DNA of 64,000 nt from a virus. The notes under the pieces are model-generated. The model did no database searches, was not told the DNA's origin, and saw only the letters and a program-made list of their open reading frames with translations. Both the position numbers and the translations under genes were made by a program. Within the stretch, counting starts at the first letter, position 1. Every line of letters begins with the position of its first letter. The DNA is taken from positions 1 through 64,000 of the IMG/VR virus record IMGVR_UViG_3300033489_000005. One strand, 5' to 3'. This document shows positions 1,978 to 53,016 of this stretch, piece by piece.

Positions 1978-2688
1978 ATGTCTTTTACCTATTCAACGTT
2001 TTTGACCGCGCTTGCTCAAGAAATCGCGATCACTACGACAAATCCTGACTTTCAGGCTATACTTCCGACGTTTATCCAGAACGCGGAGTTGAGGATTTTT
2101 CGTGACCTCGACCTATTGTCGACTGTTTTTCGTGACGCCGCGCTTACCCCGGCGCACAACCAGCGCTCACAGACGCTGCCGCAGACCTACGGGCAGTTTG
2201 TGGTGGTTGAGGGGGTCAACTTCATGAATCAGACAGTGCGTTTAAACGCTCTCACCCCCTGTTCGCGTGAGTTCATTGACGGACTGTTCCCAACCGAGAC
2301 CGCCCCGGCGTCGACCTCATCGCCCCGGTTTTTCGCCCGAGACACGGACCAAACGATTCTGGTGGCCCCCTCATTGGGGAACGGATACGCCACACCCAGT
2401 CTCGAAGTCGTGGGGACCGTGCGCCCCAATCCGCTCAGCGCGACCACGACCACGACGTTCATTTCGCAGAATCTGCCGGACCTGCTGCTCTATGCGGCCA
2501 TGGTTGAGGCGACGGGGTGGATGAAAAACTATGGCGCGCAGGCTGAAGACCCGAAGATGGGGATGAGCTGGGAGTCCCGGTATCAGGGCGCGCTCAGCCC
2601 GGCGCTGTCCGAAGAGACGCGGAAAAAATTCCAATCAGGCTCATGGTCCGCGAAGTCCAGGCCGATGAGCCAGCCGGAAAGGGTGTGA
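1978..2688 (+). CDS. virion structural protein, possibly tail tubular/adaptor protein (T7 gp11-like position)
   Basis: 236-aa ORF immediately upstream of a 686-aa ORF and the internal-virion-protein block. The assignment rests on size and order only. Confidence 0.4.
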   Translation: MSFTYSTFLTALAQEIAITTTNPDFQAILPTFIQNAELRIFRDLDLLSTVFRDAALTPAHNQRSQTLPQTYGQFVVVEGVNFMNQTVRLNALTPCSREFIDGLFPTETAPASTSSPRFFARDTDQTILVAPSLGNGYATPSLEVVGTVRPNPLSATTTTTFISQNLPDLLLYAAMVEATGWMKNYGAQAEDPKMGMSWESRYQGALSPALSEETRKKFQSGSWSAKSRPMSQPERV

Positions 2689-4750: not shown

Positions 4751-5120
4751 GTTTAGGGCGACCGCCCAACAGTCGCGGGGTGGCGGCGATATCGATATGC
4801 TGGCGCAGGCGAACGGCCTGAACGCCAACATAGGACAGCTCATATCCGTTATGAAGAGCCGGTTCGCCTTGAGCGCCTTCAACGGGTCTTTCACCATGGG
4901 CGCTGTCGTCACCCAGGTTATCCCGGACGTGAACGCCAAGGCGAACTCGATTATCTGGCTGGTCGCCGATAACGCAGCCGCCGCGACCATGCAGGCGACG
5001 ACCAAGAACGCCTACGTCTCGGCGAAGGCGGCCGGGACCAGTTTCACCGTGGCGACGGCGGACGGGACGGCGGCGACCGGCGGCCAGATTTTCAGCTATG
5101 TTATCTTGAACGTGGGGTGA
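4743..5120 (+). CDS. hypothetical virion protein
   Basis: 125-aa ORF with an 8-nt ATGGTTGA overlap onto the upstream stop. An alternative start at 4797 is possible. Confidence 0.6.
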   Translation: MVEFRATAQQSRGGGDIDMLAQANGLNANIGQLISVMKSRFALSAFNGSFTMGAVVTQVIPDVNAKANSIIWLVADNAAAATMQATTKNAYVSAKAAGTSFTVATADGTAATGGQIFSYVILNVG

Positions 5121-5123
5121 GCC

Positions 5124-5870
5124 ATGCCGTTAGCAAAGGGCAAAAGCGCCAAAACCGTGAGTAAAAACATAGTTGAGATGGTCCGCTCGGGGCATCCGAG
5201 GAACCAAAGCATTGCTGCGGCGCTCGACACCGCGCGCCGGTCTAGCAAAGCCATGGGCGGCCCAATCAAGAAAATGCCCGGTATGCCCAACATGCCGGGA
5301 ATAACCAAGCCTGAAGAAGACCAGGGCCAGAACAAGGGGCGCGGCGGCCCGACCGTGAACCCCCCGGCAGTCGCCCATGTCCCGTGGCGAGTGAAACCCA
5401 TGATAGCCGCGCCGACCAAGGTTGTGCCCCCGGTCAAGATCGTGACGGGCGCTCTTACCGGCCCGACGTCGGGCCGGGCCGACAAGTTGCCGATGAGCGT
5501 TCTCAACGGCTCTCATGTGCTCCCGGCCGACACGGTCGCGGCGCTCGGCGACGGGAATTCGATGTCCGGGCACCACGTCTTGAAAAGCATGTTCCCGCGC
5601 TCATCCGCCACGGCGAGCGGGTCTTTGGGCGGAGGCTCGAAGGCGGGGCATCCGTTCGGCCCCAGGGGACGGCGGTTTGCCTCCGGCGGGGCGCCAGAGA
5701 CCGTTCCCGTGAATGTCAGCGATGGCGAGTTCATAATCCATCCAGAAGACGTTCTCAAAATCGGAAAAGGGGACGCCAAGCGCGGCCATGAGATTCTTGA
5801 CAAGTTTATTCTACATGTCAGGAGTCACTATCAAAAGAAACTCAAAAATCTGCCGGGACCAAGTAAATGA
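5124..5870 (+). CDS. hypothetical internal virion protein
   Basis: 248-aa ORF with a basic N-terminus (KGKSAKTVSKNIVEM...QSIAAAL) and a Pro/Gly-rich middle. Confidence 0.6.
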   Translation: MPLAKGKSAKTVSKNIVEMVRSGHPRNQSIAAALDTARRSSKAMGGPIKKMPGMPNMPGITKPEEDQGQNKGRGGPTVNPPAVAHVPWRVKPMIAAPTKVVPPVKIVTGALTGPTSGRADKLPMSVLNGSHVLPADTVAALGDGNSMSGHHVLKSMFPRSSATASGSLGGGSKAGHPFGPRGRRFASGGAPETVPVNVSDGEFIIHPEDVLKIGKGDAKRGHEILDKFILHVRSHYQKKLKNLPGPSK

Positions 5871-6349
5871 ATAAAAGCAATGTCCAGCCATTGCCCCACG
5901 TAAGAGTAGCAGTCGCAGGTGATTTTAATGACCTAATCAGAATGGGACACGAGGTTTTTGCCGAAAACGGGCTTATGACGCTCAATGAAGACATGATTCG
6001 TACGGGGGCTCTGAGAGCTATTGAAGGCGTTGATTCTGTTGTAGGATGTATTGGCCCTGTTGGCGCGCTTGAGGCGGCAATTCACCTGTCTATGCGTCAT
6101 TTCTGGTACACTGAGCAGGCGCATCTTGAGGAGCTATGGGCGTTCGTCCGGCCTGAATTCAGGAAAACGAGGAACGCACAGGCTCTTATTGAGTTTGCTA
6201 AGAATTTAGCGGTGGAGTTAAAGAGACCTCTGTTAATAGGTGTTCTGTCATCGCATAGAACCGAAGCTAAAGTTAAGATGTATCGACGTAAATTGGGGGC
6301 TCCATCGGGGGCGTACTTCCTCTATAATGCTAAAACAGGGGTTGGATGA
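5867..6349 (+). CDS. hypothetical protein, possible GNAT-fold acetyltransferase
   Basis: 160-aa low-GC ORF with an ATGA overlap. VRPEFRKTRNAQALIEFAKNLA resembles GNAT motif A, but the match is weak. Confidence 0.4.
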   Translation: MNKSNVQPLPHVRVAVAGDFNDLIRMGHEVFAENGLMTLNEDMIRTGALRAIEGVDSVVGCIGPVGALEAAIHLSMRHFWYTEQAHLEELWAFVRPEFRKTRNAQALIEFAKNLAVELKRPLLIGVLSSHRTEAKVKMYRRKLGAPSGAYFLYNAKTGVG

Positions 6350-9300
6350 TGGGCGGCGGCTCTCAGAATCAGGACACTAGCCAGACGTACACGCCGAACG
6401 CTGAAGCCATGAGCGCGTTCAGGGGCGTCATGAGCGGCGCGCAGGGCGTCGCCAACCGGAACCAGACCTGGAATCCGGCCATGGCGCAGCGCGTCGCCGG
6501 TCAGAACGCCATGCAAACGCAGGGGTATTCCGGCATTCAGGGCCAGCTGGGGCAGTACTCGCCCCAGGTTAACGAGGCCCTTGGAATGACCAGCGCCGCC
6601 GGTCAGAACATCACCGGCGAGGACATTTCCCGTTATCAGAACCCCTACACCCAACAGGTCATAAACGCCACGATGGCCAACGCCCAGCAGCAGCAGGGCG
6701 CAGGCATGGCGAACGTGGTAGGCAACCAGATTGCTCAGAACGCCCAAGGCGGCGACCGGGCGATGCTGCAGAAGGCGCTCACTCAGGGCCAGTACGCCAT
6801 GGCCAACAACCAGACAATCGCCGGGCTGGAGCAGCAGGGCTACAACACCGCGCTCGCCACCGCGCAGGGGGAGAAAGGGCGCCAGCTGCAGGCGGGCATG
6901 GGCCTCATGAGCGAGGCTGGCGCGGCGCAGAATTACAATCTGCAGGGCCTCGGCGCGATGATAGGCGCGGGCGGAGCACAGCAGGGGCAGCAGCAGAACG
7001 AATACAACGCCGCGACCCAGAACGCGACCAGTCAGACCATGTGGCCGATGCAGCTTCAGCAGTGGCTCGCGGGCATTACCGGCTCGATGGGTTCGCTGAT
7101 GGGCGGCACCACCACCGGCACGTCGCAGACAACTGAGCACCCAGGCTTCTACAACTATCTCGGCGCGGGCATGGGCGGCCTGTCGGCGATGTCCGACGAG
7201 CGCGTAAAAGAGAATAAGCGCGAAGTTGGCGAGCTGTTCGACGGTCAGAAGGTTTATGCGTTCAACTATAAGGGCCACCCCACGACCCAACTCGGGTTGA
7301 TGGCGCAGGAAGTTGAGCGCCGTCATCCGGAGTCCGTTGGCCAGACCGAGGACGGCGTAAAAACCGTTCAATACGACATGGCCACCGACCGCGCGGCCAA
7401 GCGCGGCAACTTCGCCGATGGCGGGGCGCCGGGGTTCGGCGGCTCGAACCCATGGGATACGGCGAGCAGCCCGTGGGGCTCGCTTATCCAGAGCGCGCCG
7501 CAGATTCATTCAGGCGGGTTCAACCCGCCGGTCGCCGCCGGTACGGCCCCCGCGCCCATGTCTTCAAAAGATAAGGAACAGCGCGAGCAGGCCCAACAGG
7601 GCAAGCAGGGCGGCCAGGGCATGAAGGATATCTACAACAAATACCTCAACAAAGAGGGAACGGGAACGCCCGGCAGTACGGGAACGCCTTCCACAGCCAA
7701 CGGATGGGAGGCAAAAACCGTGCCTTCCAGCGAACTTGGCGGCTCGACGGATTTGACGGTGACCACCCCCGTTGAGACGGTGAGCGAAAGCACGTCTGGC
7801 CTTGGGAGCATGGGCGCAAGCGCCCCCGCGAGCGCGGCCCCATCGAGCATGATGGGCGCGGCCCCGGCGGGCGCAGGCGCAGCGGCTCCAATAGGAGAGG
7901 CTGCAACCGGGTTCGGCGGCGCGGCTACTGGGGCTGGAGGCGCGAGTCTCGCCAGCACTGGTTCTCTTGGCGCGGCTCTGTCGGCTGGGATGGGCGGCGC
8001 GGGCGCAGCCGGAGCTGCTGGAGCTGGCGCGGCGGGAGCCGGAGCCGCTGGCGCGGCGGGAGCCGGAGCCGCTGGCGCAGGCGCGGCCGGAGCTGCCGGA
8101 GCGGGCGCGGCCGGAGCTGCAGGGGCAGGCACGGCTGCAGCCGGTTCAGCTGCGGCTGCGGGCGCGGCTGGCGCGGGCGGCGCGGCCGGAGGCGGCCTCG
8201 GGGCGCTGATTGGCGCGCTCTTTTCAGACGAGCGCATGAAAGAGAACAAGCGCGTCGTGGGCCGCACGTTCGACGGTCAGAACATCTATGCCTACAACTA
8301 CAAGGGCCATCCCATGACCCAGCTCGGGTTGATGGCGCAGGAAGTGGAGAAGCGTCACCCCGGCTCCGTGGGCGAGCACGGCGGCATGAAGACGGTTCAA
8401 TATGACCGGGCGATTCAGGCGGCGTCCAGGCGCGGCCACTTCGCCAACGGCGGCGACGCGTCCAGCAACGATGATATGCGCCGCCATGCGGAGCGCATGC
8501 TGCATCTGGCGTCCGGCGGCGCGGCGCAGAACTTCGCCGATGGCGGCGAGCCGTTCATCAATCCTGACGAATTTACCTTTGACGCGCCGGAGCCCTATGA
8601 GCCCACAAAACGTGATTATGGCCATTTCGATCCATATGGCGGCGTCTCCGCTAGCGGGAATATAGAGAATATGATTCCCGGCGGGTTTTCAGCAAAACGG
8701 GCATACCGGAGGGAGCAGGCAGACAACGCCTATAATCTGAAAAACCCGGAAGACAGCCAAAAAGACACGACTGAAACACCGCTGGATACGCCAGATATTC
8801 GTGATGGCATGTGGCGCAGTCCGCACGAACAGCGCACGCATTTTGACCCGTACATGGGCAAATTCCCTGTCATGGAGCCCATCGTTCCGCATGAGCAGGT
8901 GAAAACCATGGTCCGCGCGCCAGAGGTTCCTGAACCAGGGGAGCCAAAAGGCCGGGCGCTTCCTGACTATGCGCCAAAACTCTCGCATGAGATGTTATCG
9001 GACCGGCCGCTGACTTCCGCGCCCGTGGCGACCGCGCTTGCGGAAGCGAAGATGGCGCGCAACCAGGGGCTCGACCAGCCTCCGGAGACCATGGCGCGCG
9101 GCCGGTTACCGGCTGAAGGGGCCGGGCAGCGCCCATCGTTCGAAATTCCCAAGTTCCCGGCTGGCGTCGACGTGGCGGACGTCGGCCGCGCCGCGATAAA
9201 CAAAATCACCGACCCCTATGCGGAGGCCCTGCGCGAAAGAGTATCGGATGCTGGCGGCCTGTATGCGCAGGCCGGGAGAGAGGCTCGCGGTCTTGCGCCT

Positions 9301-28415: not shown

Positions 28416-28490
28416 TGGCTGGGGCAGGTGGATTCGAACCACCATAACGCGAGTGATTAGCTCGCCGCCTTACCTGTCAGCCACACCCCA
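28416..28490 (-). tRNA. tRNA with Gln-like scaffold (U1-A72, G73, 3-bp D stem, encoded CCA) but anticodon loop CUAAUCA (formal anticodon AAU)
   Basis: Hand-folded cloverleaf: TGGGGTG/TGCCCCA acceptor, GGTGG-TTCGAAT-CCACC T arm, GCGAG-CTAATCA-CTCGC anticodon arm. Confidence 0.7.
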
Positions 28491-28717
28491 TAACGCCGCG
28501 ACACGAGGCCGGGCGCCGTCTCTGTGGGTCAACGGACCCTCCGCACTGGGCAGCGGTCAGCCCCGGCTTATCGGCGTCAAGACAGGGGGAGAATGAACAA
28601 AAAACTCCCCTGCAACGTGGCGCTCGCTTCCCCCGGCGGGGAATTGGGACCTGGACGCCGGGCGCCTCTCTTGAGGCTCACACGGACAGGGTTAGACCCG
28701 GCGTCCAGGAGGCTGAG

Positions 28718-28805
28718 TGGGCAGGTCAGGATTCGAACCCAAGAACCGCATCAAGCGGGGGCGGATTTACAGTCCGCTGGCGCTCACCACGCGCCACGCC
28801 TACCC
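28718..28805 (-). tRNA. tRNA-Tyr(GTA), type II with long variable arm, no encoded CCA
   Basis: Hand-folded: GGGTAGG/CCTGCCC acceptor, GCGGA-CTGTAAA-TCCGC anticodon arm, CCGC-TTGAT-GCGG variable arm, TTGGG-TTCGAAT-CCTGA T arm. Confidence 0.8.
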
Positions 28806-48178: not shown

Positions 48179-48255
48179 TGCGGGATAGAGAAGTGGCCCA
48201 TCTCGTCGGTCTCATAAACCGGAAACCGGCAGTTCGAATCTGCCTCCCGCTCCCA
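48179..48255 (+). tRNA. tRNA(CAT), Met/initiator-like, with encoded CCA
   Basis: Hand-folded: GAGA/TCTC D stem, TCGGT-CTCATAA-ACCGG anticodon arm, GGCAG-TTCGAAT-CTGCC T arm, acceptor TGCGGGA/TCCCGCT with a 1:72 U-U mismatch, then C-CCA. Confidence 0.75.
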
Positions 48256-49579: not shown

Positions 49580-50228
49580 GGGCGAGCCACACGGGCAGGT
49601 CAACCCGAAGACGGGGCTTGTCCCCCGTCAGGAGTTGTTTTGTCAGTATATCGTCGCTGGGATGACCCTGGCCGAGGCCACCAAGCTTGCCGGTTACCAG
49701 ATAACGTCCGCCGCGACCACCAAGCGCGACATAGACCAGTATTGGTCAGAACGAGGCGCTAAAATACGGAAAGCTCCGCTCGTTCAGGCGCGCATCGGCG
49801 TGTTGATGGCTGAACAAGCGGAAGTGCTGGCCAAGCAGCGCAATCAGCTGTCTGATAAATTTCAGATGAACATCGAGCGCTTGACGGAGATGCTTCTTCA
49901 GGACAGGCATTTCGCCCGAACTGGCCGTCTGTCCATGGAGGAGAACGCCGAGGTTCAGCCGGACCATCGGCCGGACGCCCGCGCCGCCGTGCAGGCCTCC
50001 ATGGGGCTCGCCAAGCTGCACGGCCTCTTAATCGACAAGTCGGAAATCACCGTCCAGGGTTCGATTACCCGGATGTCGAATGAGGAGCTTTTGCGGTTCA
50101 TCGACACTGTGCATAAGGAAATCGGCCCCATGATTGAGGTAGAGGCCCTGGAGATTCCGGACTCCCCCCGACAGCGGCGTCTACCGGCTAAGAAGGGGCA
50201 TGTGGTTCTGGATTTAGACAATGACTGA
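49566..50228 (+). CDS. terS: terminase small subunit
   Basis: LVPRQELFCQYIVAGMTLAEATKLAGYQ... fits the HTH N-terminus typical of TerS, and the gene is immediately upstream of TerL. Confidence 0.7.
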   Translation: MAARKGEPHGQVNPKTGLVPRQELFCQYIVAGMTLAEATKLAGYQITSAATTKRDIDQYWSERGAKIRKAPLVQARIGVLMAEQAEVLAKQRNQLSDKFQMNIERLTEMLLQDRHFARTGRLSMEENAEVQPDHRPDARAAVQASMGLAKLHGLLIDKSEITVQGSITRMSNEELLRFIDTVHKEIGPMIEVEALEIPDSPRQRRLPAKKGHVVLDLDND

Positions 50229-53016
50229 CGACTACCACTTCCGCCGCCTGCTGGAGAAGACGGCCGACCCGAGGCAGGCCCATGAGCTGCTGGCCTCGGC
50301 GATGCACGAGTTCAAGATGCGCATCGAGCGCCAGAAGCAGAGCCGCCCTGGCGGTCTGCTGGAGTTCGTAGAGTATTTTTGGGAGTGCATCGAGCCGGGG
50401 CGCGAGTTCGTCAAGGGCTGGCCGCTTGAGGCGATGGCCATGCACTTGGAAGGAGTGACATATGGAGCTATTACCAGATTATTAATTAATGTGCCGCCTG
50501 GAAGCATGAAAAGTTTACTCTTAAATTGTTTTTGGCCTGCATGGGAGTGGTCAGCATGCGATAGACCAGGAACTCGGTACATATCGTTCAGTTATTCTTC
50601 ATTACTTACTGAGCGCGATAACCAGCGTATGCTTGACCTTATTGAGAGTCAGAAATTCCAAGACTTGTGGGGGCACAAGTTTTCTATGCGTCAGAAGGGC
50701 GTTACTAAGATTTCCAACACTAAGTTCGGTTGGAAGTTCGCATCCTCTGTGCGCGGCACTGGCACCGGCGAGCGCGCCGACCGGGTTCTATGCTTCCCCC
50801 ATGAAACGCTGGTCGCCACTGAGCACGGGCCGATGGCCATCGGCGATATCGTCAAGAAGCGTTTAAACGTTCGCGTCTGGAGCCGGAATTTGGTGACCGG
50901 CCGCAACGAGCTGCGGCCGGTCACCGGCTGGCGGCATAACCCAGGCTCAGACCTTGTCAGGATCAGCTATACTGGGGGCTCCATCAGATGTACGCTTGAC
51001 CACAGGTTCTGGGTTGAGGGGCGCGGATGGGTTGAGGCCCGGCTTTTGGAGGCCGGTGACGTGGTTCCATGTGCGGCCGGTTTTAATGTGCGTGACATTT
51101 TGCCCGCTCATTCCATATCTGAGTCCTATTTCAGTGGGCGTCCCGGCAGCATTGAAAATCTCAAGCGCAGTTTCCGCCGTTATTTTGGCAGTCGGCCTTG
51201 GGTGAGCCACGCCTTTTTTAACCCTTTCTCCATGATTTCCCGCAATAAGATTAAGGTGCGCCCACGTTCTACCGTTAAATATACTCTCGATAGTGCTAGG
51301 ATGGACGCCGAACTCAAGAGCTACGCTTTTAGCGGTATGCGTATCTCTTCTGGAGAATATTTTGCGGACGAGTTCATCGGTAAGATGTGCCGCGCCGTTA
51401 CGGAATCCTCCGTTTTTCTTGCAGTCCGCAATATTTTGCGCCCGCGTTCCATATTCGAGGTTGGAAAGACGACAGTTCGCGCGTTTGTCGTTGCGGTGTC
51501 TGACTTCTTGGCCTTCAGGAACCGGCCCTATGAACGTCAGCATCATGAGCTGATGGACGAACACATAATGGGTTTGTCCATCCCGGCGCAGGGTGACGCG
51601 GGGGTAGCCCTTACTCAAAGTCGGGGTCATAAAACGGCCGTCGCGGCTGATTGTGTGGGCGGTGGTAGAGTTCCGATCCCGGTCAGTGTAGACAGGGGCG
51701 CTTCCCTTGCGCGCTGTGGTTCGAGGCTTGCTATAGACGCGGCCGTAGTTGGAAATAAGGTAGTTGGGGAAGCCAGCGGCTTCACGCCAGACTTCGGGAC
51801 CGTTCTCGGCGTCGAGGATGATGGACATGTTATGGAAACCTTCTGTTTGACCGTAGAAGGCAACCATAACATGTTCGTTTCTGACAAGCAAGACACTGTG
51901 TTCAGTCTTGCCAGCAATTGTGATGATCCACACAACATCAAAGAGGGCGAGTCGCAGACCATCCGCGAAGAGACGGTGCGCTGGTTCCGCGAGGCCATGT
52001 CTAACCGCCTCAACCACATGACCAAGTCGGCGATTATCGTCATCATGCAGCGCGTCCATCAAGAGGACGTGTCGGGCGTCATCCTTCATGAGGACCTCGG
52101 CTACGACCACCTCATGATTCCGATGCTCTATGAGGAGGGCGCCCGCTGCCACACCTCCCTCGGCTGGACCGACCCGCGCAGCGTCGACGGCGAGTGCTTC
52201 TGGCCAGACCGGTTCCCGCCCGCCGCCGTCGAGGAGTGCTTGAAGCTCGGCGAGTTTGCTTTTGCCAGTCAATACCAACAGAGGCCCGCGCCGCGCGGCG
52301 GCGGCATCTTCAAGAACGAATATTGGAACATCTGGGAACCGGATGACGGCCGCTACCCCCGGTTTGACTTCATCCTGGCCTCGGTGGACCCGGCGTACAC
52401 GCACCATGATGAGAACGACCCGTCAGCCATGACGGTCTGGGGGCTCAATTACGCCGATGACGGGACGCCGCGCGTGTTCCTTATCGCCGCGTGGCGCAAG
52501 TGGCTGCAGATTCACGGGCCGGACGTTGACCGGGAGTATGGGGAGCCACTCCAGGCCTATGAGGAGCGACGGAAAAAGAGCTGGGGGCTGGTTGAGTGGA
52601 TTTCGCACACCTGCAAGCGGTTCCAGGTCGACCGCCTTCTTGTCGAGGCCAAGGCCTCCGGCATCTCTGTGGTTCAGGAACTGCAGCGCCTCTTGTTTCA
52701 GCAACAGTTCGGCATCGAGTTTGTCAATCCTGGCCGGGCTGACAAAGAAGTCAGGGCGAACCGAGTGCAGCATATCTGGTCCGCAGGCATGATTTACCGA
52801 CCAGATCGCCCTTGGGCGGAGATGGTTGAGGAAGAAATGGCCGCTTTTCCAAAAGCGCGCTATGATGACCTGTGCGACTCCGCCACCCAGGCTTTGTGGT
52901 GGTTCAGGCAGAACAATATGCTGATGCGCCGGGAAGAAATACGGGCCGCGAATGACCCGGAGACGAACGCTAGCAGCAACCCGATGGCGGATTCAGCGCC
53001 TCTTTATCCGATGTGA
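50221..53016 (+). CDS. terL: terminase large subunit interrupted by a 376-aa intein (spliced product about 555 aa)
   Basis: Walker A VPPGSMKS. The Walker-B-like ADRVL|CDDPHN is restored across the insert. A C-terminal nuclease-type region is present. The ORF is 931 aa. Confidence 0.85.
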   Translation: MTDDYHFRRLLEKTADPRQAHELLASAMHEFKMRIERQKQSRPGGLLEFVEYFWECIEPGREFVKGWPLEAMAMHLEGVTYGAITRLLINVPPGSMKSLLLNCFWPAWEWSACDRPGTRYISFSYSSLLTERDNQRMLDLIESQKFQDLWGHKFSMRQKGVTKISNTKFGWKFASSVRGTGTGERADRVLCFPHETLVATEHGPMAIGDIVKKRLNVRVWSRNLVTGRNELRPVTGWRHNPGSDLVRISYTGGSIRCTLDHRFWVEGRGWVEARLLEAGDVVPCAAGFNVRDILPAHSISESYFSGRPGSIENLKRSFRRYFGSRPWVSHAFFNPFSMISRNKIKVRPRSTVKYTLDSARMDAELKSYAFSGMRISSGEYFADEFIGKMCRAVTESSVFLAVRNILRPRSIFEVGKTTVRAFVVAVSDFLAFRNRPYERQHHELMDEHIMGLSIPAQGDAGVALTQSRGHKTAVAADCVGGGRVPIPVSVDRGASLARCGSRLAIDAAVVGNKVVGEASGFTPDFGTVLGVEDDGHVMETFCLTVEGNHNMFVSDKQDTVFSLASNCDDPHNIKEGESQTIREETVRWFREAMSNRLNHMTKSAIIVIMQRVHQEDVSGVILHEDLGYDHLMIPMLYEEGARCHTSLGWTDPRSVDGECFWPDRFPPAAVEECLKLGEFAFASQYQQRPAPRGGGIFKNEYWNIWEPDDGRYPRFDFILASVDPAYTHHDENDPSAMTVWGLNYADDGTPRVFLIAAWRKWLQIHGPDVDREYGEPLQAYEERRKKSWGLVEWISHTCKRFQVDRLLVEAKASGISVVQELQRLLFQQQFGIEFVNPGRADKEVRANRVQHIWSAGMIYRPDRPWAEMVEEEMAAFPKARYDDLCDSATQALWWFRQNNMLMRREEIRAANDPETNASSNPMADSAPLYPM
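50791..51918 (+). mobile_element. intein (Hint domain split by a 0.9-kb insert)
   Basis: It starts CFPHETLVATEHGPMAIGDIV, has TLDH (block B-like), then FCLTVEGNHNMFV...SLASN followed by the +1 Cys. Confidence 0.8.
50947..51828 (-). CDS. HNH homing endonuclease (NUMOD4-like + HNH_3-like + two NUMOD1/IENR1-like HTH repeats), antisense inside the intein
   Basis: MSIILDAENGPEVWREAAGFPNYLISNYGRVYS...GYPRVTLRRDGQTHYVFVHQLMMLTFIGPVPEGQEVRHRNDKRANCRLSNLEYGTRAQN...STIESIFNGRTWAHL...NVTHIKTGRTWNHV. The internal ATG at 51828 of track ORF 50947..52407 is preceded by GAAGG. Confidence 0.75.
   Translation of the reverse strand: MSIILDAENGPEVWREAAGFPNYLISNYGRVYSKPRTTARKGSAPVYTDRDRNSTTAHTISRDGRFMTPTLSKGYPRVTLRRDGQTHYVFVHQLMMLTFIGPVPEGQEVRHRNDKRANCRLSNLEYGTRAQNIADCKKNGGFRNGAAHLTDELVRKIFSRRDTHTAKSVALEFGVHPSTIESIFNGRTWAHLNLIAGNHGERVKKGVAHPRPTAKITAETALEIFNAAGTPTEIGLRYGMSGQNVTHIKTGRTWNHVTGLQKPGLNPSAPLNPEPVVKRTSDGAPSIADPDKV

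What the first reader, a model, noticed from the sequence alone, without database searches (positions are those of the whole stretch)
50791..51918. The TerL intein's central 0.9 kb encodes an HNH homing endonuclease on the opposite strand, codon-for-codon antisense
The TerL ORF is 931 aa. The junction ...GERADRVL | C......SLASN | CDDPHN... restores a Walker-B-like hhhhDDP motif when 376 aa are removed.

The insert has the intein/Hint blocks:
- It begins CFPHETLVATEHGPMAIGDIV.
- It contains TLDH (block B-like).
- It ends FCLTVEGNHNMFV...SLASN, followed by Cys.

Between the two Hint halves, the plus frame translates to R/S/F-rich sequence with no domain I can recognise. The minus strand (50947..51828) gives a clean homing endonuclease:
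- A NUMOD4-like start (EVWREAAGFPNYLISNYGRVYS).
- An HNH_3-like core (GYPRVTLRRDGQTHYVFVHQLMMLTFIGPVPEGQEVRHRNDKRANCRLSNLEYGT..QN).
- Two NUMOD1/IENR1-like HTH repeats.

The two reading frames are in exact triplet register (both phases are 1 mod 3). Plus-strand stops would correspond to TTA, CTA or TCA codons in the HNH gene. None occurs over 293 codons, so both strands stay open across the whole element.

Canonical inteins carry their endonuclease in frame. A free-standing HEG nested antisense within an intein that still has to be translated through is an unusual composite mobile element.
Basis: partly seen in the sequence, partly recalled or inferred. Interest (0 to 1): 0.85.

Follow-up and report, generated by a model that had tools for sequence, protein, structure and literature searches.

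The report
Terminase intein with antisense HNH endonuclease
A phage DNA-packaging gene carries a self-splicing protein insert whose middle encodes, on the opposite DNA strand, a working-looking HNH homing endonuclease; the layout recurs in at least 13 related phage sequences, and it is a new endonuclease type for an arrangement already known from other inteins.

Summary
TerL (50221..53016, 931 aa) carries a 376-aa intein (50791..51918) inside the Walker B strand. Intein-less relatives, up to 95% identical, read DRVL-L-DDPHN.

- **Intein structure.** Residues 1-100 and 334-376 fold as a confident Hint domain. Residues 103-333 are predicted disordered and match no protein family.
- **Opposite strand.** In exact codon register (51828..50947), it encodes a 293-aa NUMOD4 + HNH_3 + two-HTH protein. 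Its only significant fold match is I-HmuI.
- **Selection.** It flips strand. In the middle 234 codons dN/dS is about 0.1 for the HNH frame and about 1.5 for the TerL frame. The reverse holds in the exteins and in the Hint ends the HNH ORF does not overlap.
- **Recurrence.** The same composite, always in the same register and with both frames open, occurs in 12 further loci (HNH identity 30-81%). None of the 12 nested HNH genes checked contains TTA, CTA or TCA (joint chance about 1e-18). All four free-standing relatives do, and these sit beside intein-less TerL genes.

However, inteins with antisense endonucleases (LAGLIDADG, VSR-like) are already published, so this is a new variant (an antisense I-HmuI-like HNH), not a new kind. 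Splicing, HNH expression and homing are inferred, not shown.

The parts
50221..53016 (+). Terminase large subunit (TerL) precursor ORF, 931 aa including the intein
   Evidence: ORF; phrog_38 terminase large subunit, E = 8e-72. Terminase_6C.
50221..50790 (+). N-extein (TerL aa 1-190), ending ...GTGERADRVL
   Evidence: dN/dS in the plus frame is 0.06 against L016 and 0.13 for L016 against L017; dS against L017 is saturated.
50791..51918 (+). Intein, 376 aa: Cys1 ... T68-L-D-H71 ... S375-N376. Class-1-like, with penultimate Ser rather than His.
   Evidence: coordinates. C1, T68, H71, N376 and the +1 Cys are invariant or near-invariant in 5 and 26 sequences. Hint fold.
50791..51090 (+). N-terminal Hint half (intein aa 1-100; blocks A and B)
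   Evidence: AlphaFold pLDDT is about 95. Foldseek matches mini-inteins at E down to 7.7e-6. dN/dS in the plus frame is 0.10-0.24.
51097..51789 (+). Plus-frame 'passenger' linker (intein aa 103-333). It is translated through but has no fold and no amino-acid-level constraint.
   Evidence: pLDDT <50 and no secondary structure. No Pfam hit. Over the middle 234 codons, dN/dS in the plus frame is 1.4-1.5 and substitutions pile up at plus codon position 1.
51790..51918 (+). C-terminal Hint half (intein aa 334-376; blocks F and G: ...GHVMETFCLTVEGNHNMFV...SLASN)
   Evidence: pLDDT is 74 in the first 10-residue block and 88-97 after it..
51919..51921 (+). +1 Cys codon (C-extein nucleophile). Intein-less alleles have Leu or Ile here.
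51919..53016 (+). C-extein (CDDPHNIKE... to the stop). The first ~30 nt are nearly identical at synonymous sites among occupied alleles.
50947..51828 (-). HNH homing-endonuclease gene (293 aa plus stop), in exact antisense codon register with TerL
   Evidence: dN/dS in the minus frame is 0.09-0.12. AlphaFold pLDDT is 78 and the only significant PDB fold hit is I-HmuI, 1u3e, E = 7.8e-7.
51586..51795 (-). NUMOD4 N-terminal DNA-binding module (HNH aa 12-81)
   Evidence: PF07463, 40.9 bits against a cut-off of 23.4.
51433..51561 (-). HNH_3 catalytic core (HNH aa 90-132; EVRH111...SN123LEYGTRAQN132)
   Evidence: PF13392, 46 bits against a cut-off of 24.8. H111 and N123 are >=90% conserved and N132 is invariant in 23 homologues; alignment to I-HmuI.
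51055..51378 (-). Two helical HTH-like DNA-binding repeats (HNH aa 151-184 and 218-258)
   Evidence: helices; weak HTH hits only. L019 lacks one repeat.
50947..51054 (-). Low-confidence C-terminal tail of the HNH ORF. From about 51090 downwards the ORF runs antisense through the N-Hint codons, and this tail is probably read-on to the first available stop.
   Evidence: pLDDT is 48-59 for HNH aa 260-293. For the overlap codons (TerL aa 243-290), dN/dS in the minus frame is 0.35-0.7 against 0.15-0.24 in the plus frame.
51826..51843 (-). HNH translation-initiation region: the SD-like GAAGG (51843..51839), a 10-nt spacer, and ATG (51828..51826). It is the antisense of block F codons E-T-F...G-H.
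   Evidence: CA-GAARGTTTC-N6-ATG is conserved in 11 loci (GTG in L031). In L022 and L030 an in-frame stop lies just upstream and pins the start. The function of the SD-like motif is inferred.
50892..50925 (.). GC-rich 14-bp hairpin, 21 nt 3' of the HNH stop, inside the N-Hint codons VTGRNELRPVTG
   Evidence: -41 to -44 kcal/mol, z -4.6 to -5.4, 0 of 200 shuffles. It is kept in L016, L019 and L017 through three compensatory pair changes. Its role is unknown.

Best explanation
This is a composite selfish element sitting in the Walker B-coding codons of the phage terminase large-subunit gene. It has two partners encoded on opposite strands of the same 1.1 kb.

**Plus strand: a contiguous intein.** Its two Hint halves (100 aa and 43 aa) are joined by about 230 aa of unstructured read-through sequence. 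After translation the Hint domain is inferred to splice itself out by the class-1 route (Cys1, T-x-x-H, terminal Asn, +1 Cys). This would yield a ~555-aa TerL reading ...DRVL-C-DDPHN...

**Minus strand: an I-HmuI-like HNH homing endonuclease.**
- Its domains are NUMOD4, HNH_3 and two HTH modules. Its codons are the exact reverse-complement partners of the linker codons.
- Plus-strand stops would be TTA, CTA or TCA codons in the HNH gene, so those three codons are purged from it. That single constraint lets the HNH evolve as a normal protein while the TerL frame stays open.
- The exact register is the only antisense frame in which this can work.

**Inferred mechanism.**
- The HNH is made from its own antisense transcript. 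Its start codon and an SD-like GAAGG lie opposite the conserved block F codons.
- It nicks or cuts intein-less TerL alleles of co-infecting relatives near the Walker B codons.
- Recombinational repair then copies the intein, the HNH gene and a short stretch of flanking extein into the empty allele (homing).

**Inferred origin.** A free-standing HNH gene of the kind that sits next to intein-less TerL genes inserted, in reverse orientation, into the loop of a mini-intein already occupying its target site.

**Shown:** the anatomy, the folds, the strand-specific selection, maintenance of both frames in 13 lineages, and the patchy distribution.

**Inferred:** splicing, HNH expression and its timing, the cleavage target, homing, and the origin.
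For: **Anatomy**
- ORFs, coordinates and shared register.
- Intein-less homologues rejoin as GER(A/G)DR(V/I)(I/L)(L/I)DDPH.
- A 95%-identical TerL (P0027, locus L119) reads DRVLLDDPHN.

**Folds**
- Intein aa 1-100 and 334-376 mostly have pLDDT around 90 or above. They give 34 PDB hits at E <= 1e-3, all of them inteins or bacterial intein-like (BIL) domains. Intein aa 103-333 have pLDDT <50.
- The HNH model has pLDDT 78 and its only significant hit is I-HmuI (E = 7.8e-7).
- Pfam and PHROG hits support the HNH assignment.

**Selection**
- In the exteins, dN/dS in the plus frame is 0.06-0.16; in the Hint ends not overlapped by the HNH ORF it is mostly 0.06-0.18.
- In the middle 234 codons, dN/dS is 0.09-0.12 in the minus frame and 1.4-1.5 in the plus frame. 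Minus-frame dS is 0.9-1.8.

**Family**
- The same architecture and register, with both frames open, occur in L016, L017/L028, L019, L020, L022, L029, L030, L031, L032, L033-36, L038 and L118.
- At least 25 further TerL proteins carry an intein at this site with C1, T68, H71, N376 and the +1 Cys conserved.

**Codon purge**
- None of the 12 nested HNH genes has TTA, CTA or TCA. The four free-standing relatives have 2-6 each.
- The joint chance over nine lineages is about 1e-18.
- The other two antisense frames hold 5-25 stops.

**Mobility**
- Empty alleles exist at 91-95% extein identity.
- Between the window/L016 lineage and L017, the intein is less diverged than the exteins (Hint dS about 1.0 against 1.8 to saturated).
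- The first ~30 nt of C-extein are almost identical among occupied alleles but differ at five synonymous sites from the empty allele.

**Origin**
- Free-standing homologues (P0011, P0012, P0015, P0016) lie next to large packaging-module genes. For P0012, P0015 and P0016 the neighbour carries a terminase hit and no intein; the P0011 neighbour is an unidentified 849-aa gene.

**Start site**
- CA-GAARGTTTC-N6-ATG is conserved in 11 loci. Upstream in-frame stops in L022 and L030 pin the start codon.
Against: - No expression or activity data exist for any member.
- No promoter for the HNH was found. The sigma-70 scan gave one weak hit about 200 nt upstream, which is no more than chance. No conserved -35 is visible.
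- The SD-like GAAGG and the -10-like TATGRT are the reverse complements of conserved block F codons (E-T-F, N-H). Their conservation may therefore owe nothing to HNH expression.
- GAAGG lies 10 nt from the ATG, which is rather far.
- The penultimate intein residue is Ser, not the usual His. The window's Pfam Intein_splicing score (21.1 bits) is below the gathering cut-off of 35.8.
- The intein being less diverged than the exteins could partly reflect different constraints rather than transfer.
- The identical C-extein flank could be constrained by something other than co-conversion.
- An HNH gene transcribed against a late, highly expressed gene faces transcriptional interference. How that is resolved is unknown.
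Confidence: 0.8

Rival explanations
1. The HNH gene is a decaying relic or a domesticated passenger. It once invaded the intein but no longer mediates homing. The intein is now inherited vertically, and the HNH ORF stays open only because it has not yet had time to decay, or because the protein does another job for the phage.
For: - No activity data exist.
- The preprint on actinophage non-canonical inteins reports some antisense-endonuclease inteins with vertical-looking inheritance.
- No promoter was found.
- L019 has lost one HTH repeat, which could be the start of decay.
Against: - dN/dS in the minus frame is about 0.1 while dS is 0.9-1.8, so the protein has been under purifying selection through saturating synonymous change.
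- Catalytic His and Asn residues are conserved in 23 homologues.
- The ORF is intact in all 12 complete loci, down to 30% identity.
- Empty alleles at 95% extein identity and homogenised flanks point to recent gain or loss.
- A host-beneficial role is unlikely, because near-identical phages lack the gene altogether.
Confidence: 0.12
2. TerL is in effect a fractured gene. Translation does not run through the centre, or the long precursor is unproductive. The two TerL halves are made separately and joined by trans-splicing of a split intein, as in the 'fractured genes' of Dassa et al. 2009. On this view the open plus frame is incidental.
For: - Split inteins flanking a free-standing endonuclease gene are known, including one in a terminase (PMC2677866).
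- The plus-frame centre has no fold.
- Two terminator-like hairpins lie on the plus strand inside the intein, at 51200 and 51400. That number is no more than chance.
Against: - The plus frame is open in all 12 complete loci.
- The three codons that would break it are absent from every nested HNH gene but present in all four free-standing relatives. The joint chance is about 1e-18.
- That is the signature of selection for read-through translation.
- No broken-frame member was found among the loci retrieved, although the retrieval patterns did not require an open frame.
Confidence: 0.04
3. The minus-strand ORF is an annotation or assembly artefact: either a chance antisense ORF in a GC-rich gene, or an inverted segment produced by misassembly. 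On this view the real endonuclease domain would be in frame.
For: - Long antisense ORFs in exact register are common in this window. The minus ORF itself stays open up to 52407, well into the C-extein.
- 6% of 293-codon windows in the window's genes lack TTA, CTA and TCA.
Against: - Pfam hits lie above the gathering thresholds, the PHROG hit is E = 2.8e-49, and the fold match is to I-HmuI.
- The dN/dS flip occurs exactly at the borders of the HNH body.
- The plus frame has no family match and no predicted structure.
- The arrangement recurs in independent assemblies from JGI, ENA, Logan, NCBI and IMG/VR samples.
Confidence: 0.01
4. The HNH is a packaging accessory of the HK97 gp74 type, working with terminase at cos sites, rather than a homing enzyme. 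On this view it merely happens to be stored inside the terminase gene.
For: - Many phages encode an HNH protein next to their terminase genes that assists cos cleavage (abstract of PMC3592412).
- The free-standing relatives of this HNH also sit beside large packaging-module genes; three of the four neighbours are identified as intein-less TerL.
Against: - The domain set (NUMOD4 + HNH_3 + HTH repeats, I-HmuI fold) is that of homing or nicking endonucleases, not of the small terminase-associated HNH proteins (the family distinction rests on my own knowledge).
- Phages with 91-95% identical TerL lack the gene, and the 5-kb L119 contig shows no substitute.
Confidence: 0.03

Closest known systems
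Inteins with an antisense-encoded LAGLIDADG endonuclease (Synechocystis DnaX intein, Chloroflexus SpoVR-like intein, actinophage minor-capsid inteins). Sources: Gorbalenya 1998 and Gogarten 2002, as cited in bioRxiv 10.1101/2025.01.02.630785. A 2026 preprint (10.64898/2026.09.14.751524) instead describes the dnaX endonuclease as out of frame (+2 ORF).
   Same: - A contiguous intein whose centre has no in-frame endonuclease.
- The endonuclease is read from another frame or strand of the same DNA.
- The in-frame centre lacks recognisable structure.
- dN/dS is low in the endonuclease frame and high in the extein frame.
- Secondary invasion of a mini-intein by a free-standing endonuclease gene is the proposed origin.
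   Different: - The endonuclease family is LAGLIDADG, not HNH.
- The host genes differ (dnaX, a SpoVR-like protein, minor capsid).
- Those papers do not report a family-wide fixed register, a purge of three specific codons, or a start codon embedded in block F.
Actinophage TerL inteins with antisense VSR-like endonucleases or frame-3 EndoVII-like endonucleases (Gosselin, Arsenault and Gogarten, bioRxiv 10.1101/2025.01.02.630785). An example seen here is Gordonia phage Clown TerL (MT771343).
   Same: - The host gene is TerL.
- Clown's intein also sits at the Walker B strand (...QPMD|C...VLVHN|CGIIDDP), and its N-Hint half is 37.5% identical to the window's.
- The endonuclease is encoded outside the extein frame.
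- The authors argue that the intein must still splice because TerL is essential.
   Different: - In Clown the extra ORF (locus L120 2400..3527) is on the same strand, out of frame, and has a classic HNH/EndoVII-like HH...N...H motif.
- The antisense cases in that survey are VSR-like or LAGLIDADG. The only HNH endonucleases it lists are in frame.
- The present family comes from uncultured, non-actinophage-like phages and has no full-length match among 50,697 GenBank phage records.
I-HmuI (PDB 1U3E), the HNH nicking homing endonuclease of the Bacillus phage SPO1 DNA-polymerase group I intron
   Same: - It is the only significant structural match (Foldseek E = 7.8e-7, 191 columns) and the only sequence match in the PDB (E = 0.006).
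- The module order is the same: an N-terminal beta DNA-binding region, then the HNH core, then C-terminal helical DNA-binding modules.
   Different: - I-HmuI is encoded inside a group I intron, on the sense strand.
- Sequence identity is 18%.
- The window protein has two HTH repeats and a tail that reads on through the Hint codons.
Fractured genes: split inteins flanking a free-standing endonuclease gene (Dassa et al. 2009, PMC2677866)
   Same: - An endonuclease gene with its own start and stop sits between the N- and C-terminal intein halves, at the position where canonical inteins carry their endonuclease domain.
- A terminase example exists.
- The evolutionary model is the same: a free-standing endonuclease gene invades an intein.
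   Different: - There the host gene is broken into two ORFs and trans-splicing is required.
- The endonucleases there are GIY-YIG or VSR-like.
- Here the host frame is continuous in every member.
Canonical in-frame HNH inteins (Dalgaard et al. 1997, as cited) and hidden out-of-frame HNH insertions such as the ShiLan element (PMC11855218)
   Same: - An HNH-family endonuclease is associated with an in-frame insertion in a phage gene.
- The host frame is kept free of stops across the insertion.
   Different: - In-frame HNH inteins translate the endonuclease as part of the intein.
- ShiLan has no Hint domain at all, and its HNH is on the same strand.

Membership tests
Intein (Hint-fold protein-splicing element, class 1) | Hint (HINT/Hedgehog-intein) fold formed by the N- and C-terminal segments | tested here: met
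   In the AlphaFold model, aa 1-100 and 334-376 mostly have pLDDT around 90 or above. Foldseek gives 34 PDB hits at E <= 1e-3, all inteins or bacterial intein-like (BIL) domains; the best is 7cfv at 7.7e-6.
Intein (Hint-fold protein-splicing element, class 1) | N-terminal Cys/Ser nucleophile, block B T-x-x-H, C-terminal Asn, and a +1 Cys/Ser/Thr | tested here: met
   C1, T68, H71 and N376 are invariant in 26 sequences, and the +1 Cys is >=90% conserved.
Intein (Hint-fold protein-splicing element, class 1) | Penultimate His in block G | tested here: not met
   The penultimate residue is Ser (..LASN|C), and it is Ser, Ala or similar in relatives. This residue is common but not obligatory in active inteins (my own knowledge).
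Intein (Hint-fold protein-splicing element, class 1) | In-frame insertion at a conserved site of a host protein, with homologues that lack it and are colinear across the site | tested here: met
   The insertion lies in the Walker B strand. Intein-less TerLs read DRV(I/L)(L/I)DDPH. P0027, at 95% identity, reads DRVLLDDPHN.
Intein (Hint-fold protein-splicing element, class 1) | Pfam Intein_splicing (PF14890) at or above the gathering score | tested here: inconclusive
   The window protein scores 21.1 bits against a cut-off of 35.8, with E = 3e-4. Many homologues with the same intein carry a precomputed PF14890 hit.
Intein (Hint-fold protein-splicing element, class 1) | Protein splicing actually occurs | not testable with these tools
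   Splicing is inferred from purifying selection on the exteins and Hint halves and from TerL being essential.
HNH homing endonuclease of the I-HmuI type (NUMOD4 + HNH_3) | HNH_3 and NUMOD4 profile matches above the curated cut-offs | tested here: met
   HNH_3 scores 46 bits against 24.8 and NUMOD4 scores 40.9 bits against 23.4. PHROG 59 gives E = 2.8e-49.
HNH homing endonuclease of the I-HmuI type (NUMOD4 + HNH_3) | Catalytic His and metal-ligand Asn residues of the beta-beta-alpha-metal motif conserved | tested here: met
   H111 and N123 are >=90% conserved and N132 is invariant in 23 homologues. They align to the I-HmuI D-H...N...N motif.
HNH homing endonuclease of the I-HmuI type (NUMOD4 + HNH_3) | Overall fold like I-HmuI | tested here: met
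   Foldseek against 1u3e gives E = 7.8e-7 and probability 1.00, and it is the only hit at E <= 1e-3.
HNH homing endonuclease of the I-HmuI type (NUMOD4 + HNH_3) | C-terminal NUMOD1/IENR1-type HTH DNA-binding modules | tested here: inconclusive
   The model shows two helical modules and the sequence shows an internal repeat. Only weak generic HTH Pfam hits appear, and there is no NUMOD1 hit.
HNH homing endonuclease of the I-HmuI type (NUMOD4 + HNH_3) | Site-specific cleavage or nicking of the empty allele, and homing | not testable with these tools
   There is indirect support only: a patchy distribution among near-identical TerLs and homogenised flanks.
Non-canonical inteins with an antisense-encoded homing endonuclease (Gorbalenya 1998; Gosselin et al. 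2025) | A contiguous intein ORF without an in-frame endonuclease domain, and an endonuclease ORF on the opposite strand between the splicing blocks | tested here: met
Non-canonical inteins with an antisense-encoded homing endonuclease (Gorbalenya 1998; Gosselin et al. 2025) | The endonuclease belongs to one of the reported antisense types (LAGLIDADG or VSR-like) | tested here: not met
   It is HNH_3/NUMOD4. The survey lists HNH only as an in-frame endonuclease. Hence this is a new variant.
Fractured gene with a split intein (Dassa et al. 2009) | The host gene is broken into two separate ORFs, each fused to one intein half | tested here: not met
   A single open TerL frame spans the element in the window and in all complete relatives.

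The most novel reading that the evidence does not exclude
The antisense layout may be an evolved interlock rather than a frozen accident.

- The HNH start codon and ribosome-binding region, and possibly its -10 element, are written on the reverse strand of the intein's most immutable block F codons (G-H, E-T-F, N-H).
- Neither partner can therefore be deleted or silenced without damaging the other.
- Convergent transcription of TerL (late) and the HNH (earlier) would give built-in temporal or antisense-RNA control of the endonuclease.
- The conserved GC-rich hairpin just 3' of the HNH stop, maintained by compensatory and even non-synonymous changes in the Hint codons, would act as the terminator or 3' stabiliser of the antisense transcript.

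If so, this would be a bidirectionally coded mobile element whose two genes regulate and protect each other.
Probability: 0.25. Interest if true: 0.7.

Novelty: new variant of a known kind. Interest (0 to 1): 0.55.

Why it matters
- **A third antisense endonuclease family.** It adds an I-HmuI-like HNH to the short list of inteins whose homing endonuclease is encoded on the opposite strand. It shows that the layout is a long-lived family in uncultured phages, not a one-off: at least 13 diverged loci, plus at least 25 more TerL proteins with an intein at the same site.
- **A clean natural case of two-strand coding.** One strand is selected for a protein. The other is selected only for the absence of stops, and this is achieved by purging exactly three codons. 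This gives a simple, testable rule for how an antisense gene can live inside a translated gene.
- **Support for 'splicing domain first'.** It supports the view that inteins acquire endonucleases by invasion of free-standing genes, because free-standing sister genes sit beside intein-less TerL genes.
- **Annotation consequences.** Gene callers split or mis-strand these loci. In L022 the antisense ORFs were called in place of the 1585-aa TerL. TerL-based phage phylogenies and intein surveys that look only in frame will miss them.
- **A possible tool.** The Hint domain tolerates a ~230-aa unstructured insert and may be useful as a splicing scaffold.

Tried and rejected
1. **DNA search of TerL against GenBank phages.** It returned one 129-nt hit, so no close cultured relative exists.
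2. **tblastn of the intein against the same collection.** It found only N-Hint similarity to Gordonia phage Clown, so the composite is absent from deposited phage genomes.
3. **Sigma-70 promoter and terminator scan of 50600..52600.** It gave one weak minus-strand promoter-like site at 52062..52033 and two plus-strand terminator-like sites, none above the shuffle expectation. Inspecting 132 nt upstream of the HNH start in 11 loci showed no conserved -35. The HNH promoter remains unidentified.
4. **Third homologue search, with the intein alone.** It returned a single hit although many intein-bearing TerLs are in the database. This probably reflects the word-based candidate step and is uninformative.
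5. **Search for HNH or Hint paralogues elsewhere in the window.** None were found.
6. **Genome-collection scan.** It returned mostly unrelated cellular inteins matching only the N-Hint half. Only L038, a 2.6-kb contig binned to an Acidobacteria MAG, carries the composite, so the host could not be assigned.
7. **Explanations considered and rejected.** These were a chance antisense ORF, an assembly inversion, a split intein or fractured gene, and a packaging-type HNH. Details are under the rival explanations.
8. **The SD-like GAAGG and -10-like TATGRT as expression signals.** I could not separate these from conservation of the block F amino acids, so they are reported as inference only.

Full report
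**1. What is in the sequence**

The window is part of a tailed-phage genome. It encodes a small terminase, portal, ejection protein, primase, DNA polymerase and helicase.

The ORF at 50221..53016 (+) encodes 931 aa. It matches terminase large-subunit families: phrog_38 at E = 8e-72, and Pfam Terminase_6C. TerL residues 191-566 (nt 50791..51918, 376 aa) begin CFPHETL and end SLASN, followed by Cys.

On the minus strand an ORF runs from the ATG at 51828 to the stop at 50949..50947 (293 aa). Its codon boundaries coincide with those of TerL. It scores above the curated cut-offs for HNH_3 (46 bits against 24.8) and NUMOD4 (40.9 against 23.4), and hits PHROG 59 'HNH endonuclease' at E = 2.8e-49.

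The plus-frame centre hits nothing. Across the whole TerL, at E <= 1, only Terminase_6C, a sub-threshold Intein_splicing match spanning aa 205-553, and PT-HINT appear.

**2. The insert is an intein at the Walker B strand**

Related TerL genes without the insert read GTGERGDRVILDDPHN (L001, L002, L004)...ADRIIIDDPHN (L007) and similar. A TerL 95% identical in its exteins (P0027, locus L119) reads GERADRVL-L-DDPHN where the window reads GERADRVL-[376 aa]-C-DDPHN.

I ran an AlphaFold model of the 376 aa with 25 homologues as the alignment.
- It gives pLDDT of about 95 for aa 1-100 and mostly about 90 for aa 334-376.
- It gives pLDDT below 50, with no secondary structure, for aa 103-333.
- The confident part matches 34 PDB chains at E <= 1e-3. 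All are inteins or bacterial intein-like (BIL) domains; the best are the DnaX mini-intein 7cfv and the NrdJ-1 intein 8ubs.

Cys1, Thr68 and His71 (block B) and Asn376 are invariant in 26 sequences, and the +1 Cys is at least 90% conserved. The penultimate residue is Ser rather than His.

**3. The minus-strand ORF is a real, constrained gene and the plus-frame centre is a passenger**

The AlphaFold model of the HNH protein has mean pLDDT 78, with the core above 90. Its only significant PDB match is the nicking homing endonuclease I-HmuI (1u3e; Foldseek E = 7.8e-7; phmmer E = 0.006). The catalytic His111 and Asn123 are at least 90% conserved, and Asn132 is invariant, in 23 homologues.

I built codon alignments of the window with three related viral contigs (L016, L017, L019) and computed Nei-Gojobori dN/dS for both strands, segment by segment.
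- In the exteins, substitutions fall on plus codon position 3 and plus-frame dN/dS is 0.06-0.16. The Hint ends not overlapped by the HNH ORF behave the same way, with plus-frame dN/dS mostly 0.06-0.18.
- In the middle 234 codons, substitutions fall on plus position 1, which is minus position 3. For window against L016 the counts at plus positions 1, 2 and 3 are 114, 21 and 34.
- There, minus-frame dN/dS is 0.09-0.12 with dS of 0.9-1.8, while plus-frame dN/dS is 1.4-1.5.
- Where the HNH tail overlaps the N-Hint half, the Hint frame dominates (0.15-0.24 against 0.35-0.7). The tail is also low-confidence in the model. It is probably read-on to the first available stop.

**4. It is a family, and both frames are kept open by selection**

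Searches with the HNH protein, TerL and an intein alignment recovered the same composite in these loci:
- L016
- L017/L028
- L018 (identical to L019)
- L020
- L022
- L029, L030, L031, L032
- L033-36
- L038
- L118, plus a truncated copy in L037

HNH identity to the window ranges from 81% down to about 30%, and extein identity down to about 27%. In every complete case three things hold:
- The TerL frame is open across the intein.
- The HNH ORF is intact.
- The two share the same codon register.

At least 25 further TerL proteins in the protein database carry an intein at this site with the same invariant residues.

Plus-strand stops correspond to TTA, CTA or TCA in the HNH gene.
- All 12 nested HNH genes examined have none of these codons. 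The four free-standing relatives have 2-6 each in 147-218 codons.
- Using each locus's own extein codon usage, the chance of an open frame is 0.0003-0.14 per lineage. It is about 1e-18 for nine lineages treated as independent.
- For the window alone the figure is 0.5-6%, depending on the null.
- The other two antisense frames of the nested genes contain 5-25 stops. This explains why only the exact register is seen.

**5. Signs of mobility and of origin**

- **Empty alleles.** They occur at 91-95% extein identity.
- **Intein against exteins.** Between the window/L016 lineage and L017, the intein is less diverged than the exteins. Hint dN is 0.11-0.18 and dS about 1.0. Extein dN is 0.27-0.37 and dS runs from 1.8 to saturated.
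- **Flanking sequence.** The first ~30 nt of C-extein (TGTGATGATCCaCACAACATCAAAGAGGG) are almost identical in the window, L016, L017 and L019. They differ at five synonymous positions from the empty allele L119. This looks like a co-conversion tract, a target-immunising change, or both.
- **Possible excision footprint.** One TerL (P0048) reads VLCDDPH with no intein at this site.
- **Free-standing relatives.** P0011, P0012, P0015 and P0016 each lie next to a large packaging-module gene, on either strand. For P0012, P0015 and P0016 that neighbour carries a terminase hit and no intein. This fits an origin in which a TerL-targeting free-standing endonuclease gene inserted, reversed, into a mini-intein.

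**6. Expression signals (inference)**

In 11 loci the 15 nt before the HNH start read GAARGTTTC-N6, followed by ATG (GTG in L031). In L022 and L030 an in-frame stop just upstream fixes this as the start.
- The ATG is the reverse complement of the His codon in the conserved ...G-H-V-x-E-T-F-C... of block F.
- The SD-like GAAGG is the reverse complement of the T-F codons.

These signals cannot be separated from amino-acid conservation of block F, and no promoter could be identified.

A GC-rich 14-16 bp hairpin lies 21 nt beyond the HNH stop (window 50892..50925), inside the Hint codons VTGRNELRPVTG.
- It is significantly stable: z from -4.2 to -5.6, with 0 of 200 shuffles folding as well.
- It is preserved in L016/L019 and L017 through three compensatory pair changes, some of them non-synonymous in the Hint frame.
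- It has no U-tract, and its role is unknown.

**7. Comparison with what is known**

Full-text searches and reading of the relevant papers show the following.
- Antisense LAGLIDADG endonucleases in inteins have been reported since 1998.
- Antisense VSR-like and frame-3 EndoVII-like endonucleases in actinophage inteins, many of them in TerL, were described in a 2025 preprint.
- A dN/dS flip like the one found here was reported in 2026 for the cyanobacterial dnaX intein.
- The 2025 survey lists HNH endonucleases in inteins only as in-frame domains. I found no report of an antisense HNH.
- Gordonia phage Clown's TerL intein, also at Walker B and 37.5% identical in the N-Hint half, carries a same-strand out-of-frame HNH-like ORF instead.
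- The split-intein 'fractured gene' arrangement does not apply, because the host frame is continuous.

**8. Verdict**

The element is best described as a contiguous TerL intein whose homing endonuclease, an I-HmuI-like HNH, is a separate gene on the opposite strand. Both frames are kept open by purging three codons.

It is a new variant of a recently recognised kind, not a new category. The main additions here are:
- the endonuclease type;
- the size and age of the family;
- the quantitative evidence for dual-strand maintenance;
- the embedding of the HNH start in block F;
- the conserved hairpin.

Splicing, HNH expression, cleavage specificity and homing all remain to be shown experimentally.

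Noticed in passing
L022 1760..6517 (-) (ENA ERZ19034169 scaffold_2636): This TerL ORF of 1585 aa carries three inteins. One is a canonical in-frame LAGLIDADG intein at Walker A (PPGFAK|ALDSDTP...). One is the Walker B intein with the antisense HNH. The third lies near the C-terminus (GAHDDLC|LVGDTNIV...VLVHN|CDSAT) and contains a same-strand, out-of-frame HNH_3 ORF (2046..2648, 200 aa). The gene caller of the source had called antisense ORFs instead of the TerL. The locus contains a masked run of N.
   Followed up: partly
L003, L005, L006, P0030, P0048 (TerL relatives): A second, unrelated intein with an in-frame LAGLIDADG domain occupies the Walker A/P-loop site (INVPPGFSK|...) of the same TerL family. 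TerL is therefore invaded at both ATPase motifs.
   Followed up: partly
P0048 (911-aa TerL homologue): It reads GERGDRVLCDDPHS, with the +1-type Cys but no intein at Walker B. This could be a footprint of precise intein loss, or an allele pre-adapted or immune to invasion.
   Followed up: no
L029, L031, L034 (junctions): The insertion point within the Walker B strand is not identical across the family. The window type is DRVL|C-DDPH. L029 and L031 are DRV|C-(L/V)DDPH, one residue upstream. L034 is ...GG|C-IIIDDPH, three residues upstream. This suggests site sliding or separate invasions.
   Followed up: partly
window 50892..50925 (also L016 and L017, just 3' of the HNH stop): This perfect 14-bp GC-rich inverted repeat lies inside the N-Hint codons, 21 nt after the HNH stop. 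It is kept by three compensatory changes in relatives and has no T-tract. Possible roles are a 3' end or stabiliser of the antisense transcript, an element on the sense mRNA, or a DNA-level signal.
   Followed up: partly
L019 / L018 versus L016: The exteins are almost identical (dS 0.02-0.17), but the HNH C-terminal region is replaced or shortened to one HTH repeat (245 aa). The end of the N-Hint half also differs (…GRGWIPADILGPTSG…). This is a recent in-frame deletion or recombination that kept both frames open.
   Followed up: partly
L016 5048..5650 (-) and L019 6033..6635 (-): A 200-aa ORF with Cys-rich and HNH/AP2-like motifs (…CVCTCGVEKKV…RIDPFGDYAPGNVRWATQSEQ…) sits upstream of the terminase small-subunit region in these relatives. 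The window has no counterpart. It may be another free-standing endonuclease.
   Followed up: no
L024-L026 (around 5042..6811): Next to the free-standing HNH P0015, TerL appears as three overlapping ORF fragments (5042..5869, 5805..6335, 6257..6811). Either it is frameshifted or a pseudogene, or the assembly has indels.
   Followed up: no
window 28416..28490 (-), 28717..28805 (-), 48179..48255 (+): The phage window carries three tRNA genes: Ile-AAT, Tyr-GTA and Met-CAT. The Met tRNA lies about 0.8 kb upstream of the ORF that precedes the small terminase gene.
   Followed up: no
window 50947..52407 (-): The antisense frame in exact register stays open for a further 193 codons upstream of the HNH start, through the C-extein. 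Long antisense ORFs of this kind are common in this genome and are not evidence of coding by themselves (6% of 293-codon windows are free of TTA, CTA and TCA).
   Followed up: yes
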